Shown here: in pieces, positions 30,896 to 36,404 of the stretch
Position numbering within the stretch: the stretch's first letter is position 1
Layout: each line of letters begins with the position of its first letter
Assembly: GCA_964610395.1 (NCBI GenBank)
Contig: CAZSXP010000001.1
Coordinates: 63,342-127,341, forward strand
Length of the DNA: 64,000 bases
Source: an uncultured Gammaproteobacteria bacterium
GTDB taxonomy: Bacteria; Patescibacteriota; Microgenomatia; UBA8517
Direction of reading: 5' to 3'
Notes under the pieces: model-generated
Told to the model about the DNA's origin: nothing
Databases searched by the model: none
What the model saw: the letters and a program-made list of their open reading frames with translations, nothing else
Made by a program: the position numbers and the translations under genes

Positions 30896-32101
30896 ATGAA
30901 ACGATTCAACTACAAAGCGAAAAATAAAGCTGGAAAGCTGGTAACTGGTGAAGTTGAAGCTGTTGATGATTCTAATGCTGCTAGACTAGTTCATGGAAAA
31001 GGACTACTTGTACTATCTGTAAAACAAGTTTTTGAAAACCCAATTGTTTTTATTAAAAATTTAAAAAATAGGATTACTCCATCAGATGTTGTTACTTTTA
31101 CTCGTCAGTTTGCAACAATGGTCAATGCTGGTTTACCAATTACTGAGTCACTTATTATTCTAAAATCTCAAGCAAATGGTTCAATGGGTAAAGTTGTTTC
31201 CCAAATTTTGGCAGATATTGAAGGAGGAGAATCTGTTTCAAAAGCTTTCATCAAACATCCTAATGTTTTTTCTCCAACCTACATTGCCTTAGTCAAGTCA
31301 GGTGAAGTTGGTGGGGTTTTGGATACTGTTTTAGTTCGTCTTGCTGATGATATGGAAAAGCAACAAGAATTTAAAGGAAAAGTTAAAGGGGCCATGATTT
31401 ATCCCATGATAATTGTTATCGGTATGGTAATAGTTGCCTTTTTAATGATGATTTTTGTTGTTCCAAGACTTACCTCACTTTATTCAGAGTTTAACGCAGA
31501 ACTTCCACTTCCAACCAGAATTTTAATGGGAATATCTGATGCTGTAATTAAATTCTGGCCTGTAACTCTTGCATTTTTTGTAGGTGGATTTTATGGCTTT
31601 AAAACGTATAGAAAAACTACTGCAGGAAAATTAAAAACAGATGAGCTTCAATTTAAAATTCCAATCATTGGCCCATTACAAAAACAGGTTTTGTTAACTG
31701 AGCTAACAAGTACGCTTTCTTTAATGTCTGGTGCTGGAGTATCAATTTTGGAAAGCTTAAACATAACATCGGAAGTTATGAGTAATGCAGTAATAAGTAA
31801 TGCTCTAAAGGACGTTTCAATTCAAGTTGAAAAAGGTTTTCCTGTTTCCTATGCTTTTGCAAAACATCCTGACGCATTTCCTTTTATTCTTTCTCAAATG
31901 ATTGCTGTTGGTGAAGAAACTGGAAAAATGGAAGAGGTTCTAAAAAAAGTAAGTCATGTTTTTGAAGTTGAGTCAGACCAAAAAGTTAAAACATTAACTG
32001 CAGCAATTGAACCAATTGTCATGGTTCTTTTGGGGTTAGGAGTTGGATTTTTAGTCATTGCAATTATCCTGCCTATTTACAACTTGACAAGTCAATTTTA
32101 G
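30896..32101 (+). CDS. pilC: Type IV pilus platform protein PilC (GspF family)
   Basis: 401 aa with duplicated GspF domains and 3 TM; its 3' end is duplicated at 36189..36392. Confidence 0.9.
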   Translation: MKRFNYKAKNKAGKLVTGEVEAVDDSNAARLVHGKGLLVLSVKQVFENPIVFIKNLKNRITPSDVVTFTRQFATMVNAGLPITESLIILKSQANGSMGKVVSQILADIEGGESVSKAFIKHPNVFSPTYIALVKSGEVGGVLDTVLVRLADDMEKQQEFKGKVKGAMIYPMIIVIGMVIVAFLMMIFVVPRLTSLYSEFNAELPLPTRILMGISDAVIKFWPVTLAFFVGGFYGFKTYRKTTAGKLKTDELQFKIPIIGPLQKQVLLTELTSTLSLMSGAGVSILESLNITSEVMSNAVISNALKDVSIQVEKGFPVSYAFAKHPDAFPFILSQMIAVGEETGKMEEVLKKVSHVFEVESDQKVKTLTAAIEPIVMVLLGLGVGFLVIAIILPIYNLTSQF

Positions 32102-32113
32102 GTACTTGACAAG
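31882..32113. repeat. 232-bp direct repeat, copy 1 (last ~73 codons of pilC plus 12 nt); left boundary of the island
   Basis: Aligns base-for-base with 36173..36404 at a constant offset of 4291; 3 mismatches, all synonymous or in the stop codon. Confidence 0.9.
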
Positions 32114-32139
32114 CCAATTTTAAATATACCCATAAGTCA

Positions 32140-32167
32140 TTGACTATTTGATCATTTCTGATATAGT
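32140..32167 (+). promoter_or_regulatory. Promoter of the precursor-peptide gene (TTGACT-16 nt-TATAGT)
   Basis: Consensus-like hexamers directly inside the island's left end. Confidence 0.45.
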
Positions 32168-32211
32168 TCTGCTTGTATTATTCTTACGAATTTACTAAGG
32201 AGGTGATTAAA

Positions 32212-32388
32212 TTGAAATTAATAAACAAAAATAGAGATTTGAGAGACGCAAAACCAATGATGGAAACCAAAAGTATCAAAATGGAAACATCAGATTGCGA
32301 TACTGCATGTACAAGCGATTGTGCACAAAGTTGTGGATGTGAATCAGATTGTGCAGCAAGCTGTGGTTGCGAAGGGTCAAACGAATAA
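32212..32388 (+). CDS. Cys-rich RiPP precursor peptide (MKLINKNRDLRDAKPMMETKSIKME | TSDCDTACTSDCAQSCGCESDCAASCGCEGSNE)
   Basis: Strong SD AAGGAGGTGA 8 nt before TTG; leader plus core with 8 Cys in repeated SDC/SCGCE motifs; immediately upstream of YcaO. Confidence 0.6.
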   Translation: MKLINKNRDLRDAKPMMETKSIKMETSDCDTACTSDCAQSCGCESDCAASCGCEGSNE

Positions 32389-32396
32389 TACAAAAA

Positions 32397-34523: not shown

Positions 34524-34546
34524 AAATAGGATGATATACTTCTAAT

Positions 34547-35200
34547 ATGTTTATATTTTTAATTAGACACGCAGAAGGATCAGGTTCAAGAGAAAAATGG
34601 CAAACTCCAGATACTCCACTTAGTGATACAGGGGCAAAACAATCTGAAAACTTAACCACTCTGTCTCGGTTCAAAAAAGTGGATTTAATTCTATCTAGTA
34701 AATGGAAAAGAGCTTTAGAAACGGCAAAAATAGTTTCAAAATTACTTGATAAAAAACTTCTAGAAACTGACGGAATTCAAGAACGTGAGCAACATTCGGA
34801 AATTTATGGTGCTGATAGGCAAAGTGATATAAGTAAGCGCTATAACGATGAGAATATTAAAAATTACAATGATCTTGACTGGAAATTTGAAAATAAGGAA
34901 GAATCAATAAGAGAAGTTTCAGAACGTGCATTTAATTTCAAAAACAGTTTAACATCTAACTATCTAAATAAAAGTATCGTAGTTGTGTCTCATGAAATGT
35001 TTATTAGATGTTTTATTACAAATATTCTATTAGGCGAGAATTATGAAGACAAAGTTTTTAATAAAATTTATAGATCGTTACAACTTATGAATACTGGAGT
35101 GTCGCTGTTGGAGTTTAATGAAAATAGAAAAACTTGGAAAGTATGGTATATAAATGACTTCGCACATTTGGGAAGAATAAAAACGAAAATAAGCAAGTAA
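34547..35200 (+). CDS. Histidine phosphatase superfamily (PGM-like branch) protein
   Basis: N-terminal 'FIFLIRHAEGSG' RHG catalytic motif, 'VVVSHEMFIR'. Confidence 0.65.
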   Translation: MFIFLIRHAEGSGSREKWQTPDTPLSDTGAKQSENLTTLSRFKKVDLILSSKWKRALETAKIVSKLLDKKLLETDGIQEREQHSEIYGADRQSDISKRYNDENIKNYNDLDWKFENKEESIREVSERAFNFKNSLTSNYLNKSIVVVSHEMFIRCFITNILLGENYEDKVFNKIYRSLQLMNTGVSLLEFNENRKTWKVWYINDFAHLGRIKTKISK

Positions 35201-35201
35201 A

Positions 35202-36125
35202 TTAATAATCTTTCCATAACCTTTCACTGTTTATAAATCTCAATACTTTTTTATGAGTTTCTCTGGCTCTTTCAAGGTATCTGGATTTTATGTTTTGTAG
35301 ATAGTCAATTGCCCGAGTAGAAATAAACAATATATAAAATGTCATAACTGATTTTTCAGTATCAGTTAGATCATTTGAATCTAAGTAACCATTAAGAAAT
35401 GCATCAAAATTTTTATTAACTCGATCTGATTTTATTAGATGATACAGATAGTAAGAAACATCGTTTAGTTGAGTCTCTTCCTTCCAATTCCCAAAATCTA
35501 ATAATTTCAATCTATTATCTGTTTTTACGATAGCTTGTCCGTCGTGTATATCATTATGGTTAAAAACTGGAATAGCATTTCCACAATAATTAAGCATCGT
35601 ATCTGAAAGTTTGTTAAGGATAACTTGAGTTTCACTATTTGATTGAAGTTCATTTAATGGGCTACCTAAATATTTACGTAATAATTCTGAATAATATGAA
35701 AAATCAGTTTTACCACTTGAGCTCCATCCAGTTCCTGAAACTGGTACTTTGTCGTGCATGTCTCTAGTTATTTTACCTAAGTCAATTCTTAATCTTGCAT
35801 TGTTACTGGTATATAGTAATTCCCCTTCAATCTTTTCAGAAATAAGCAACTTTTCACCATCTTTATTTTTGGCTAAAGCGTAAGGCTTAGGTACAGATAG
35901 TCCTGCTCCGTATGTCATATTTAATCCCTTCCATTCTCGTTGGGTGCTACCGCTATTAGTAGAAATTTTAATTGCCACTTCAGTTCTAGATTCAGATGTT
36001 GCGTAAAGGATAGAGTTGCCAGTGAATGGTGCAATTTCTTTTTTATGAACATTTAATATGACTTGAGGCACAGAAAACTCTGTATTCCTACTTTCAATTG
36101 GAAAATATGTAATTCTTTCTGACAT
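35202..36125 (-). CDS. APH/choline-kinase-like phosphotransferase
   Basis: Catalytic loop 'HNDIHDGQAIV' (HxDxxxxN) and 'LLDFGNW' (DFG-like); likely start MSERITYF (36125), since the track ORF start falls inside direct repeat 2. Confidence 0.6.
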   Translation of the reverse strand: MSERITYFPIESRNTEFSVPQVILNVHKKEIAPFTGNSILYATSESRTEVAIKISTNSGSTQREWKGLNMTYGAGLSVPKPYALAKNKDGEKLLISEKIEGELLYTSNNARLRIDLGKITRDMHDKVPVSGTGWSSSGKTDFSYYSELLRKYLGSPLNELQSNSETQVILNKLSDTMLNYCGNAIPVFNHNDIHDGQAIVKTDNRLKLLDFGNWKEETQLNDVSYYLYHLIKSDRVNKNFDAFLNGYLDSNDLTDTEKSVMTFYILFISTRAIDYLQNIKSRYLERARETHKKVLRFINSERLWKDY

Positions 36126-36172
36126 CTTATAAATTATGCGTATTGTACGCTTAAACAAGCTATTTTTACAAA

Positions 36173-36404
36173 TTTTATTCTTTCTCAAATGATTGCTGTT
36201 GGTGAAGAAACTGGAAAAATGGAAGAGGTTCTAAAAAAAGTAAGTCATGTTTTTGAAGTTGAGTCAGACCAAAAAGTTAAAACATTAACTGCAGCAATTG
36301 AACCAATTGTCATGGTTCTTTTGGGGTTAGGAGTTGGATTTTTAGTAATTGCAATTATCCTGCCTATTTACAACTTGACGAGTCAATTTTAAGTACTTGA
36401 CAAG
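36173..36404. repeat. 232-bp direct repeat, copy 2 (includes the 67-aa pilC 3'-fragment ORF 36189..36392); right boundary of the island
   Basis: The ORF-track protein at 36189..36392 is identical to the PilC C-terminus; the TTGACA at its end serves as the -35 for pilA. Confidence 0.9.

What the first reader, a model, noticed from the sequence alone, without database searches (positions are those of the whole stretch)
31882..36404. Thiazole/oxazole-type RiPP cassette on a 4.06-kb island inserted into the 3' end of pilC
Between two 232-bp direct repeats (31882..32113 and 36173..36404) lie, in order: a Cys-rich leader+core precursor, a YcaO cyclodehydratase, a SagB-type FMN dehydrogenase, a histidine phosphatase and an APH-like kinase. 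Precursor, YcaO and SagB dehydrogenase together make up the minimal TOMM/LAP (microcin B17 or streptolysin S-like) machinery. The repeats duplicate the last ~73 codons of pilC, so the island sits between pilC and pilA-pilD yet leaves pilC intact. The second copy is a 67-aa orphan pilC fragment whose TTGACA still forms the pilA promoter. Small-genome symbiont-like bacteria are not known as RiPP producers, and no transporter or classical immunity gene is present, so the product, its export and its target are open.
Basis: partly seen in the sequence, partly recalled or inferred. Interest (0 to 1): 0.9.

Follow-up and report, generated by a model that had tools for sequence, protein, structure and literature searches.

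The report
Azole-peptide gene island beside pilC
A 4.06-kb accessory island in a groundwater Woesebacteria-like (CPR) genome carries genes for a cysteine-rich peptide predicted to be converted to thiazoles; such clusters are already known in these bacteria, but this version adds a conserved kinase and phosphatase and is present in some near-identical genomes and absent from others.

Summary
Two 232-nt direct repeats (229/232 identical) duplicate the last 73 codons of pilC and bracket 4,059 bp. That segment holds a 58-aa Cys-rich precursor, a SagD-type YcaO (281 bits, cutoff 219), a SagB-type dehydrogenase (164 bits, cutoff 78), a histidine phosphatase and an APH-fold kinase.

It is not an assembly artefact. 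The same layout recurs in two other lineages, and in one of them the repeats are only 90% identical. Contigs with flanks identical to the window, and about 75 related loci, have pilC joined directly to pilA.

The interpretation as an azole RiPP (LAP) cassette holds, with two corrections:
- YcaO-nitroreductase LAP clusters are already reported in 93+ CPR genomes (Sharrar 2020), so the novelty premise is outdated.
- No E1/ThiF-like partner is present, so it is not the full microcin B17 or streptolysin S machinery.

What appears new is a subclade in which the usual M16 leader peptidase is replaced by a conserved phosphatase plus a rare, discrete kinase subfamily. This subclade has Ser-rich, Pro-free cores. 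I infer, with low confidence, reversible Ser/Thr phosphorylation of the peptide.

The island appears to be gained and lost by homologous recombination across the repeats, with no integrase. Verdict: new variant of a known kind; moderate interest.

The parts
30896..32101 (+). pilC (type IV pilus platform protein), intact, 401 aa; its last 73 codons form repeat copy 1
   Evidence: PF00482 216 bits; GspF/PilC models covered end to end; aligns over residues 1-401 with 80 relatives
31882..32113 (+). Direct repeat copy 1 (pilC 3' end, stop codon and 12 nt)
   Evidence: 229/232 identical to 36173-36404
32104..32123 (+). 20-nt mini-copy of a pilC terminus (ACTTGACAAGCCAATTTTAA) at the island's left edge; also present ahead of the cassette in L009
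   Evidence: Identical to the native pilC end of L096; read directly from the sequence
32140..32167 (+). Promoter-like site TTGACT-16-(TG)TATAGT upstream of the precursor (consensus match only)
   Evidence: the sequence is conserved in L009
32212..32388 (+). Precursor peptide, 58 aa. Leader carries an RDLxDAxP motif. The core SDCDTACTSDCAQSCGCESDCAASCGCEGSNE has 8 Cys
   Evidence: RBS AAGGAGGTGA at 32197-32206; orthologues in 4+ lineages with an invariant Cys framework; no Pfam or NCBIfam hit
32397..33743 (+). SagD-type YcaO cyclodehydratase ('D' protein only), 448 aa
   Evidence: TIGR03604 281 bits against 219. ExxER, ExxERD and C-terminal PHPF conserved in 70-82 of 82 homologues. AF2 pLDDT 93; best fold match LynD, TMq 0.80, over the full length
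33747..34523 (+). SagB-type FMN-dependent azoline dehydrogenase, 258 aa
   Evidence: TIGR03605 164 bits against 78; PF00881 79 bits; K-Y motif conserved in 73-75 of 77; found in 76 of the 80 loci clustered, in almost all directly downstream of YcaO
34547..35200 (+). Histidine phosphatase (branch 1, PGM-like), 217 aa, no signal peptide; same strand as SagB, 23 nt downstream of it
   Evidence: PF00300 97 bits. Nearest solved relatives are phosphoserine phosphatase 4ij5 and CobC. Catalytic R-H...R...E...H conserved in 11-12 of 12. Conserved next to SagB in the kinase subclade
35202..36125 (-). APH/choline-kinase-fold kinase, 307 aa, convergent with the operon
   Evidence: PF01636 26.5 bits against 23.2. 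Invariant K53, E64, H190-x-D192, D210-F211. AF2 pLDDT 92.7; top fold hits AmiN, CotI, APH(9), Mph, ComG. Discrete subfamily: 58 representatives at E<=1e-30 out of 1.84 billion
36142..36171 (-). Promoter-like site for the kinase gene (TTGTAA-18-TACAAT; consensus match only)
36173..36404 (+). Direct repeat copy 2. It contains the 67-aa orphan pilC fragment (ORF 36189-36392). Empty-site contigs carry this version of the pilC end
   Evidence: PF00482 50 bits for the fragment; L176, L180 and L181 are 100% identical to copy 2
36438..37710 (+). pilA (36438-37037) and prepilin peptidase pilD (37018-37710), the genes displaced from pilC by the island
   Evidence: PF07963, PF06750 and PF01478; directly follow pilC in about 75 of 80 related loci
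26797..28212 (-). M16 (HxxEH) peptidase outside the island; a candidate leader peptidase acting in trans (inference only)
   Evidence: PF00675 and PF05193. Clusters with the M16 peptidases that directly follow SagB in 23 kinase-less loci. Also present in the empty-site contig L176, so it belongs to the core genome

Best explanation
This is a real accessory island that encodes a partner-less linear azole peptide (LAP-type RiPP) pathway of the kind already seen in CPR and DPANN genomes, in a variant that carries a kinase and a phosphatase.

Shown by sequence and comparison: the gene content, the conserved catalytic residues, the conserved five-gene module, and the presence/absence of the island.

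Inferred mechanism, steps 1-3:
1. The 58-aa precursor is recognised through its conserved leader (RDLxDAxP), either by YcaO or SagB directly or by a partner encoded elsewhere.
2. The SagD-type YcaO uses ATP to cyclodehydrate the eight Cys (and possibly Ser/Thr) to azolines.
3. The SagB-type FMN dehydrogenase oxidises them to azoles, giving an acidic poly-thiazole peptide.

Inferred with low confidence, steps 4-5:
4. The APH-fold kinase, which appears to be transcribed separately, phosphorylates Ser/Thr hydroxyls of the Ser-rich core. The cytoplasmic histidine phosphatase reverses this. Together they would form a phospho-switch for self-protection or timing of maturation, as in AmiN/AmiO, rather than a dehydration system.
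5. The leader is removed by a protease encoded elsewhere, and export is unassigned.

The island carries no integrase. Its 232-nt direct repeats of the pilC 3' end allow loss, and probably gain, by homologous recombination. That would explain why near-identical genomes exist with and without it.
For: Pathway:
- HMM scores are above the curated cutoffs for SagD-type YcaO and SagB.
- YcaO ATP/Mg motifs, the C-terminal PHPF, the SagB K-Y motif and the phosphatase catalytic set are conserved.
- The YcaO model superposes on the azoline-forming LynD and MusD.
- The precursor has a strong RBS and a Cys framework that is invariant across lineages.

Module:
- Precursor-YcaO-SagB-phosphatase-kinase(-) is conserved at 46-82% YcaO identity.
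- It occurs in at least three different genomic contexts and about 9 species genomes.
- The kinase subfamily is small and sharply separated from generic APH proteins.
- Kinase-bearing loci have Ser-rich (6-9 of 35), Pro-free cores. M16-bearing loci have mostly Pro-rich, Ser-poor cores (Mann-Whitney p=4.5e-5, not phylogenetically independent).

Precedents:
- APH-like kinases phosphorylate Ser/Thr of RiPP precursors (CaoK, PMC9486802; TsaC, PMC8153245).
- BGC-encoded kinase/phosphatase or kinase self-resistance exists for amicoumacin and corramycin (PMC6156654, PMC10996006).
- AmiN is the top structural hit for the kinase.

Island:
- An empty site occurs in L096, and in L176, L180 and L181 whose flanks are identical to the window.
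- The integrated layout recurs in L009/L017 (repeats 90% identical), L185 and the JGI scaffold L177.
- Island GC is 30.2% against 33.2% for the window, in the lowest 2.7% of equal-sized windows.
- L185 is mosaic relative to L009: 82% identical left of the pilC end and 95% right of it.
Against: - No product has been observed for any member of this clade.
- No E1/ThiF-like partner or RRE domain is present, although most characterised azole-forming YcaOs need one. A ThiF-like protein does exist 24 kb away, at 60182-61306.
- A cytoplasmic kinase and a cytoplasmic phosphatase acting on the same substrate would form a futile cycle unless separated in time or by regulation.
- Kinase similarity to AmiN and ComG is at fold level only (TM about 0.58, 14-18% identity), and no sequence-level PDB hit was found.
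- The Ser-richness correlation rests on few independent lineages, and one M16-type core (L065) is also Ser-rich.
- No exporter or leader peptidase lies in the island.
- The empty-site contigs could in principle be assembly-graph shortcuts through the repeat. L096 and about 75 other loci cannot be explained that way.
Confidence: 0.7

Rival explanations
1. The kinase and phosphatase-fold protein are a dehydration system. The kinase phosphorylates Ser/Thr and the second enzyme removes phosphate by elimination, giving dehydroalanine-thiazole units. The product would be goadsporin- or thiopeptide-like, and the route analogous to class V lanthipeptides and thioamitides.
For: APH-like kinases do exactly this in cacaoidin and thioamitide pathways. 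Cores in kinase-bearing loci are rich in Ser-Cys pairs.
Against: In 96% of known cases the kinase partner is a HopA1-like lyase, and none is present here. The partner protein has the complete hydrolytic R-H-R-E-H set of histidine phosphatases. I know of no histidine phosphatase that acts as a phospholyase.
Confidence: 0.12
2. The kinase and phosphatase are passengers unrelated to the peptide, for example a small-molecule kinase/phosphatase or a resistance gene pair. They would be merely linked to a plain YcaO-SagB LAP cassette.
For: The kinase is on the opposite strand. Fold hits include homoserine, choline and ethanolamine kinases. The nearest sequence relatives of the phosphatase are phosphoserine and alpha-ribazole phosphatases.
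Against: The pair is retained in fixed order and orientation next to SagB across YcaO identities of 46-82% and different genomic contexts. At least six of the 20 kinase homologues share a longest-contig length with a YcaO hit. The subfamily is tiny and discrete. It replaces the M16 peptidase of sister clusters.
Confidence: 0.15
3. The product is not a secreted antibiotic but an intracellular or cell-associated Cys/thiazole-rich acidic peptide used for metal binding or redox buffering.
For: No exporter or dedicated immunity gene lies in the island or in sister loci of the kinase subclade. The core has a regular CxxxC/CxC spacing and many Asp/Glu.
Against: The SagB dehydrogenase implies that the Cys thiols are consumed into thiazoles, which removes the classical thiolate ligands. 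Characterised LAPs are toxins or antibiotics (PMC7136475). This concerns the role of the product, not the chemistry, so it is compatible with most of the best explanation.
Confidence: 0.15
4. The pilC...pilC' repeat structure is an assembly artefact: a misjoin, or a collapsed or duplicated repeat.
For: Several short-read contigs break inside the repeat (L001, L002, L179, L183, L184).
Against: The two copies differ at 3 positions and in their flanks. In L009 the homologous copies are only 90.1% identical, so they cannot be a collapsed repeat, and the right junction is identical to the window's. L185 spans pilB to the pilins in one collinear 12.3-kb alignment. The JGI scaffold L177 links both junctions.
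Confidence: 0.02
5. The island is a site-specific integrative element. Its attachment site is the pilC 3' end, and its integrase has been lost or acts in trans.
For: It shows the classic signature: a direct repeat that reconstitutes the 3' end of the target gene, clean empty sites, and nested or recurrent insertions at the same spot (L009, L153, L119).
Against: All five island ORFs are accounted for and none is a recombinase. Repeat lengths vary widely between events: 232, about 60, at least 46 and 20 nt. L011 and L013 carry the module without pilC repeats. A 232-nt repeat is ample for RecA-type recombination.
Confidence: 0.15

Closest known systems
CPR linear azole peptide (LAP) clusters of Sharrar et al. 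2020 (Microgenomates_ANG_785 type: precursor-YcaO-nitroreductase-peptidase)
   Same: Adjacent SagD-type YcaO and SagB-type nitroreductase, a Cys-rich precursor just upstream, no E1/ThiF partner, CPR hosts. My scan recovers this architecture, with an M16 peptidase after SagB, in 23 loci. The leader motifs are related (xDAKEF and RDLxDAxP).
   Different: The M16 peptidase is replaced by a histidine phosphatase plus a convergent APH-fold kinase. Cores are Ser/Asp-rich and Pro-free rather than mostly Pro-rich. The cluster sits on a repeat-flanked, variably present island at the pilC 3' end.
Microcin B17 (McbABCD) and streptolysin S (SagABCD) TOMM systems
   Same: A precursor (A), an FMN dehydrogenase (B) and a YcaO (D) that together make azoles from Cys/Ser/Thr. 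McbD is a recognisable structural relative (TM about 0.6).
   Different: No E1-like C protein (McbB/SagC). No export or immunity genes (McbEFG, SagGHI) and no dedicated protease. The kinase and phosphatase are extra.
Standalone YcaOs of bottromycin biosynthesis
   Same: YcaO enzymes that act without an E1-like, ThiF-like or TfuA partner (PMC7136475).
   Different: Those form a single thiazoline or a macroamidine and are not paired with a SagB-type dehydrogenase. The YcaO here is SagD-type and most resembles the YcaO domain of LynD and MusD.
AmiN kinase / AmiO phosphatase (amicoumacin) and ComG (corramycin) self-resistance
   Same: An APH-fold kinase encoded in the biosynthetic cluster inactivates the product by phosphorylation, and in amicoumacin a cluster-encoded phosphatase re-activates it. 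AmiN is the kinase's top structural match.
   Different: Similarity is at fold level only (16% identity). AmiO is an alkaline phosphatase, whereas the enzyme here is a cytoplasmic PGM-type histidine phosphatase. Those substrates are NRPS/PKS products, not RiPPs.
LanK/LanY (CaoK/CaoY, TsaC/TsaD) Ser/Thr dehydratases of class V lanthipeptides and thioamitides
   Same: A PF01636 kinase acts directly on Ser/Thr of a RiPP precursor. In thioamitides it co-occurs with a YcaO.
   Different: No HopA1-like lyase. A hydrolytic phosphatase takes its place. The YcaO here is azole-forming with SagB, not thioamide-forming with TfuA.

Membership tests
Linear azol(in)e-containing peptide (LAP/TOMM) biosynthetic cluster | Precursor gene with a leader and a Cys/Ser/Thr-rich core next to the enzymes | tested here: met
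   32212-32388, with a strong RBS, 8 Cys, 6 Ser and 3 Thr in the last 35 residues; conserved in orthologous loci
Linear azol(in)e-containing peptide (LAP/TOMM) biosynthetic cluster | YcaO cyclodehydratase (D protein) of the azoline-forming type | tested here: met
   TIGR03604 281 bits against 219. ATP/Mg motifs and the C-terminal PHPF are conserved. The fold matches LynD and MusD. That these motifs mark azoline-forming YcaOs is established knowledge, not tested here
Linear azol(in)e-containing peptide (LAP/TOMM) biosynthetic cluster | FMN-dependent SagB-type dehydrogenase (B protein) | tested here: met
   TIGR03605 164 bits against 78; K-Y motif conserved
Linear azol(in)e-containing peptide (LAP/TOMM) biosynthetic cluster | Leader-binding partner (E1-like C or ThiF-like F protein, separate or fused); present 'in most cases' (PMC7136475) | tested here: not met
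   None among the five island ORFs. The YcaO is a bare YcaO domain. No ThiF-like neighbour was found by phmmer in any CPR or DPANN locus; BLAST clustering adds one DPANN locus, L052. A ThiF-like protein belonging to a second YcaO locus lies 24 kb away
Linear azol(in)e-containing peptide (LAP/TOMM) biosynthetic cluster | Product contains azol(in)e rings and is not macrocyclised | not testable with these tools
   Needs expression and mass spectrometry or NMR
Site-specific integrative island | Direct repeats at both ends that reconstitute the target gene, and an empty site in relatives | tested here: met
Site-specific integrative island | Element-encoded integrase or recombinase | tested here: not met
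   All island ORFs are assigned to other families; the rest of the window was not searched for recombinases
APH/choline-kinase-like phosphotransferases (PF01636) | Family HMM above cutoff, bilobal kinase fold and catalytic motifs (beta3 Lys, HxD catalytic loop, DFG-like Asp) | tested here: met
   26.5 bits against 23.2 (marginal). K53, E64, H190/D192 and D210-F211 invariant. Foldseek probability 1.0 to many APH-family structures
APH/choline-kinase-like phosphotransferases (PF01636) | Identified substrate (antibiotic, small molecule or peptide Ser/Thr) | not testable with these tools
   There is only a correlation with Ser-rich cores
Histidine phosphatase superfamily, branch 1 | Family HMM above cutoff and the catalytic RHG His, two Arg, Glu and second His | tested here: met
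   PF00300 97 bits against 21.7; catalytic residues conserved in 11-12 of 12

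The most novel reading that the evidence does not exclude
The cassette defines an undescribed RiPP subclass. A partner-independent YcaO/SagB pair builds a poly-thiazole peptide. A dedicated APH-fold kinase and a histidine phosphatase then reversibly phosphorylate its serines, as a built-in switch for self-immunity or maturation that stands in for the missing immunity and transport genes. 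The whole unit spreads among ultra-small CPR bacteria as an integrase-free module that recombines in and out of the type IV pilus operon.
Probability: 0.25. Interest if true: 0.75.

Novelty: new variant of a known kind. Interest (0 to 1): 0.5.

Why it matters
No natural product from any CPR (Patescibacteria) bacterium has been characterised, as far as I could find. This cassette is compact (4 kb, five genes) and its catalytic residues are conserved. It occurs naturally in with-island and without-island versions within what looks like one population, which makes it a good candidate for heterologous expression.

It would let three questions be tested directly:
- Can SagD-type YcaOs work without an E1/ThiF partner?
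- What does a kinase/phosphatase pair do to an azole peptide?
- Do episymbiotic bacteria use such peptides against hosts or competitors?

The repeat-flanked, integrase-free insertion at the pilC 3' end is also a clear example of accessory genes moving by homologous recombination in genomes with few classical mobile elements. The basic idea of a LAP cluster in CPR has been published since 2020, so the surprise is moderate.

Tried and rejected
- Assembly artefact: rejected (see rival explanations).
- 'Short island' allele in L177: it is a scaffold with an N-run (3137-3236), not a deletion. It is still useful, because it links both junctions.
- Hidden E1/RRE domain in the YcaO N-terminus: rejected. 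The whole model aligns to the YcaO domain of LynD.
- E1/ThiF partner near homologous YcaOs: found only beside distant Bacillota, Nitrospinota, cyanobacterial and Prevotella members and one Aenigmatarchaeota locus.
- Anti-phage defence reading of the island: no PADLOC hit for any of the five proteins.
- Sequence search of the kinase against the PDB: nothing below E=0.1.
- Precursor family name: no Pfam or NCBIfam hit, and only 4 unnamed homologues in the protein collection.
- RNA genes in the island: none.
- Literature on YcaO with a histidine phosphatase or kinase, and on any characterised CPR azole peptide: nothing found in the held library. The Burkhart 2017 review was not held.
- Name of the source contig: not retrievable. 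The organism is inferred from the closest relatives, which are Woesebacteria/Patescibacteria MAGs.
- Circular form of the island: cannot be distinguished from the integrated form using the contigs available. The ends of L001 overlap inside the repeat either way.

Full report
**1. The observation**

The two direct repeats exist where stated. 31882-32113 and 36173-36404 are 229/232 identical, and the repeat finder extends them to 241 nt at 97%. The three differences are silent: GTC/GTA, ACA/ACG and the stop codons TAG/TAA. The repeat covers the last 73 codons of pilC, the stop codon and 12 nt beyond it.

Between the repeats lie 4,059 bp with five genes:
- A precursor whose best start is TTG 32212, 5 nt after the RBS AAGGAGGTGA. 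It is 58 aa: MKLINKNRDLRDAKPMMETKSIKMETSDCDTACTSDCAQSCGCESDCAASCGCEGSNE.
- A YcaO at 32397-33743 (TIGR03604 SagD family, 281 bits against a cutoff of 219).
- A SagB-type dehydrogenase at 33747-34523 (TIGR03605, 164 bits against 78).
- A branch-1 histidine phosphatase at 34547-35200 (PF00300, 97 bits).
- An APH-like kinase on the minus strand at 35202-36125 (PF01636, 26.5 bits against 23.2).

pilC (30896-32101) is full length. The second repeat holds a 67-aa orphan pilC ORF and is followed by pilA and pilD.

The 'TTGACA pilA promoter' is only a consensus match, in a region where such matches are no more common than in shuffled sequence.

**2. Real or artefact, and where it comes from**

Exact-protein look-ups place the sequence in Rifle groundwater metagenomes. 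The closest named relatives are Woesebacteria/Patescibacteria MAGs.

Short-read contigs often break inside the repeat (L001, L002, L179, L183, L184). Four results exclude a misassembly:
- The two copies differ from each other and have different flanks.
- In a Hainich groundwater MAG (L009/L017), pilC is again followed by the same cassette, a 67-aa pilC fragment and pilA-pilD. The right junction sequence is identical to the window's, yet that genome's own copies are only 90.1% identical.
- L185 is a frameshift-ridden contig that looks like a long-read assembly, from a third lineage. It is collinear with window 28093-40135 in one 12.3-kb alignment.
- A JGI scaffold (L177) links pilC to the precursor and the kinase to the orphan fragment and pilA across an N gap.

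**3. The empty site**

A scan of metagenome contigs with PilC returned 80 loci with 59-98% PilC identity. In about 75 of them pilC is followed directly by pilA-pilD.

L096 (PilC 98% aa, 90% nt) has a 17-nt pilC-pilA spacer. Contigs that encode exactly the window's PilC and PilA also exist without the island:
- L180 and L181, from Rifle samples, have flanks 100% identical to the window.
- L176 comes from a strain 99.2% identical to the window.

In all three the pilC 3' end is the copy-2 version. One of these samples (SRR2177950) also yields island contigs (L008) and a contig that breaks exactly at the repeat boundary (L184).

The simplest reading is a population polymorphic for the island. An assembly-graph shortcut cannot be fully excluded for those three contigs, but it cannot explain L096 or the other loci. 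The island's GC content is 30.2% against 33.2% for the window, in the lowest 2.7% of equal-sized windows.

**4. How the island moves**

This part is inferred. None of the five genes is a recombinase. A 232-nt direct repeat is enough for homologous recombination, which would delete the island cleanly and leave one pilC end, as seen in the empty-site contigs.

Other observations point the same way:
- All three copy differences are silent, as expected if both copies evolved as functional pilC ends in different lineages.
- L185 is 95% identical to L009 across the island and the pilA side, but only 82% identical across pilB-pilC. That places a recombination breakpoint at the pilC end.
- The same five-gene module, with homology limits at window 32177-36154, sits in unrelated contexts without pilC repeats in two Woesebacteria MAGs (L011 at 80% nt, L013 at 70% nt).

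The pilC terminus also looks like a recurrent insertion site:
- L009 has a second, nested five-gene insertion (NUDIX, GDPD, choline-kinase-like, an unknown gene and DIT1_PvcA) with its own ~60-nt pilC-end repeat.
- L153 has a 50-nt pilC-end copy 195 nt downstream of pilC.
- L119 has an IS200-like Y1 transposase between pilC and pilA, flanked by a 20-nt repeat.
- The window's own left junction keeps a 20-nt relic of another pilC end at 32104-32123.

**5. What the cassette is**

The YcaO has the two acidic ATP/Mg motifs (ExxER and ExxERD, conserved in 81-82 of 82 homologues) and the C-terminal PHPF motif (70-77 of 82). SagB has its K-Y motif (73-75 of 77).

The AlphaFold model of the YcaO (pLDDT 93) aligns over its whole length to the YcaO domain of the azoline-forming heterocyclases LynD (TMq 0.80) and MusD. 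It has no extra domain. No E1-like or ThiF-like partner is in the island.

Among 79 homologous loci from species-representative genomes, 76 of the 80 loci clustered also carry SagB, nearly always directly downstream of YcaO. An E1/ThiF-like neighbour appears only beside the most distant members (Bacillota, Nitrospinota, cyanobacteria, Prevotella) and one Aenigmatarchaeota locus. So this is a 'B + D only' LAP-type system, widespread in CPR bacteria and DPANN archaea. Relatives of the YcaO occur in 415 species genomes.

This matches what Sharrar et al. 2020 reported: a YcaO-nitroreductase-peptidase LAP cluster in a Microgenomates genome and 110 LAP clusters in 93 further CPR genomes (PMC7298704). 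Travin et al. 2020 define the LAP minimal set and note that a partner is present 'in most cases' and that standalone YcaOs exist (PMC7136475).

**6. What is different here**

In 23 of the homologous loci the gene after SagB is an M16 (HxxEH) peptidase. In the window's subclade the M16 gene is absent, and a histidine phosphatase plus a convergent kinase follow SagB in fixed order. This subclade comprises the window, L017-L022 and L081, with a remnant in L059; L023 has both the kinase and the M16 peptidase.

The kinase:
- The kinase motifs are invariant.
- The model is confident (pLDDT 92.7).
- The nearest structures are small-molecule and antibiotic kinases: amicoumacin kinase AmiN, CotI/YtaA, homoserine kinase II, APH(9), macrolide kinases and corramycin kinase ComG. 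The similarity is at fold level only.
- An exhaustive profile search finds just 58 cluster representatives at E<=1e-30 among 1.84 billion. Scores then fall to generic APH-level matches.
- At least six of the 20 word-indexed homologues share a longest-contig length with a YcaO hit.

The phosphatase keeps its full catalytic set. Its closest solved relatives are a phosphoserine phosphatase and CobC.

Precursors in kinase-bearing loci share the leader motif R(D/E)LxDAxP and the terminal framework SC..C.ASCGC. Their cores are Ser-rich (6-9 of 35 residues) and Pro-free. M16-type precursors share xDAKEF leaders and mostly Pro-rich, Ser-poor cores (p=4.5e-5, not phylogenetically independent).

**7. 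Mechanism**

Steps 1-3 (leader recognition, ATP-dependent cyclodehydration of Cys, FMN-dependent oxidation to thiazoles) follow from family membership and conserved residues. The absence of a partner leaves open how the leader is read.

For the kinase and phosphatase I consider three readings:
- (a) A reversible phospho-switch on Ser/Thr of the peptide, for self-protection or timing. Support: APH-like kinases are known to act on RiPP Ser/Thr (CaoK, TsaC). Cluster-encoded kinase, or kinase plus phosphatase, self-resistance is known for amicoumacin and corramycin. The kinase also appears to be transcribed separately.
- (b) Dehydration to dehydroalanine. This is weakened by the lack of a HopA1-like lyase and by the hydrolytic catalytic set of the phosphatase.
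- (c) Unrelated passengers. This is weakened by the tight, long-range co-conservation.

I favour (a) at roughly 0.3, against 0.12 for (b) and 0.15 for (c). The remainder is unassigned. Leader removal may use an M16 peptidase encoded outside the island (26797-28212, also present in the empty-site contig L176). Export is unassigned.

**8. Verdict**

Its claim that such bacteria are not known RiPP producers is outdated. The comparison with microcin B17 and streptolysin S machinery misses the absent C protein.

The finding is a new variant of a known kind, distinguished by the kinase/phosphatase pair, the Ser-rich core, and the repeat-flanked, variably present island in the pilus operon. Interest is moderate (0.5). 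It would be higher if the phospho-switch or partner-independent azole formation were shown experimentally.

Noticed in passing
window 59049-63946: A second, separate TOMM-like locus. A ThiF/E1-like protein (60182-61306; PF00899 130 bits; weak, sub-cutoff hits to the SagC and TOMM leader-binding models) overlaps a second SagD-type YcaO (61281-62522; TIGR03604 249 bits against 219). A SAM methyltransferase lies upstream (59049-59816) and an M16-like protein downstream on the minus strand (62828-63946). No SagB is present. Candidate small ORFs at 60054-60140 (+) and 62549-62758 (-) have no family hit. It could supply a partner protein in trans.
   Followed up: partly
L009 4819-9660 (= L017; Hainich MAG H41-bin064_1): A nested second insertion at the same pilC end: NUDIX, GDPD, a choline-kinase/APH-like gene, an unknown 409-aa gene and DIT1_PvcA. 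It is flanked by its own ~60-nt pilC-end repeat and sits upstream of the RiPP module.
   Followed up: partly
L119 1248-2122; L153 2137-2381: Other lineages also have insertions at the pilC-pilA junction. L119 has an IS200-like Y1 transposase gene flanked by a 20-nt direct repeat. L153 has a 50-nt copy of the pilC end 195 nt after pilC, at the end of the contig.
   Followed up: partly
window 26797-28212 (-): An M16 peptidase next to pilB is homologous to the M16 peptidases that directly follow SagB in kinase-less CPR LAP clusters. It is also present in the island-free contig L176 and absent at this position in L009.
   Followed up: partly
window 32304-32363: The precursor core contains a 30-nt tandem duplication (70% identical) that encodes ACTSDCAQSC / GCESDCAASC. 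This suggests the core grew by duplication of a 10-residue unit.
   Followed up: no
window 35200-35202: The phosphatase and kinase genes converge with a single base between their stop codons, and no terminator-like structure lies between them. Transcripts from the two strands would overlap.
   Followed up: no
L185 versus L009: Identity is mosaic: 82% across pilB-pilC but 95% across the island, pilA and the downstream pilins. This indicates recombination at the pilC 3' end between lineages.
   Followed up: partly
window 36438-40555: A run of at least six pilin-like genes follows pilD. They share N-terminal methylation motifs (repeat family D2 at 36447, 37725 and 38876). The same arrangement is seen in most related loci.
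   Followed up: no
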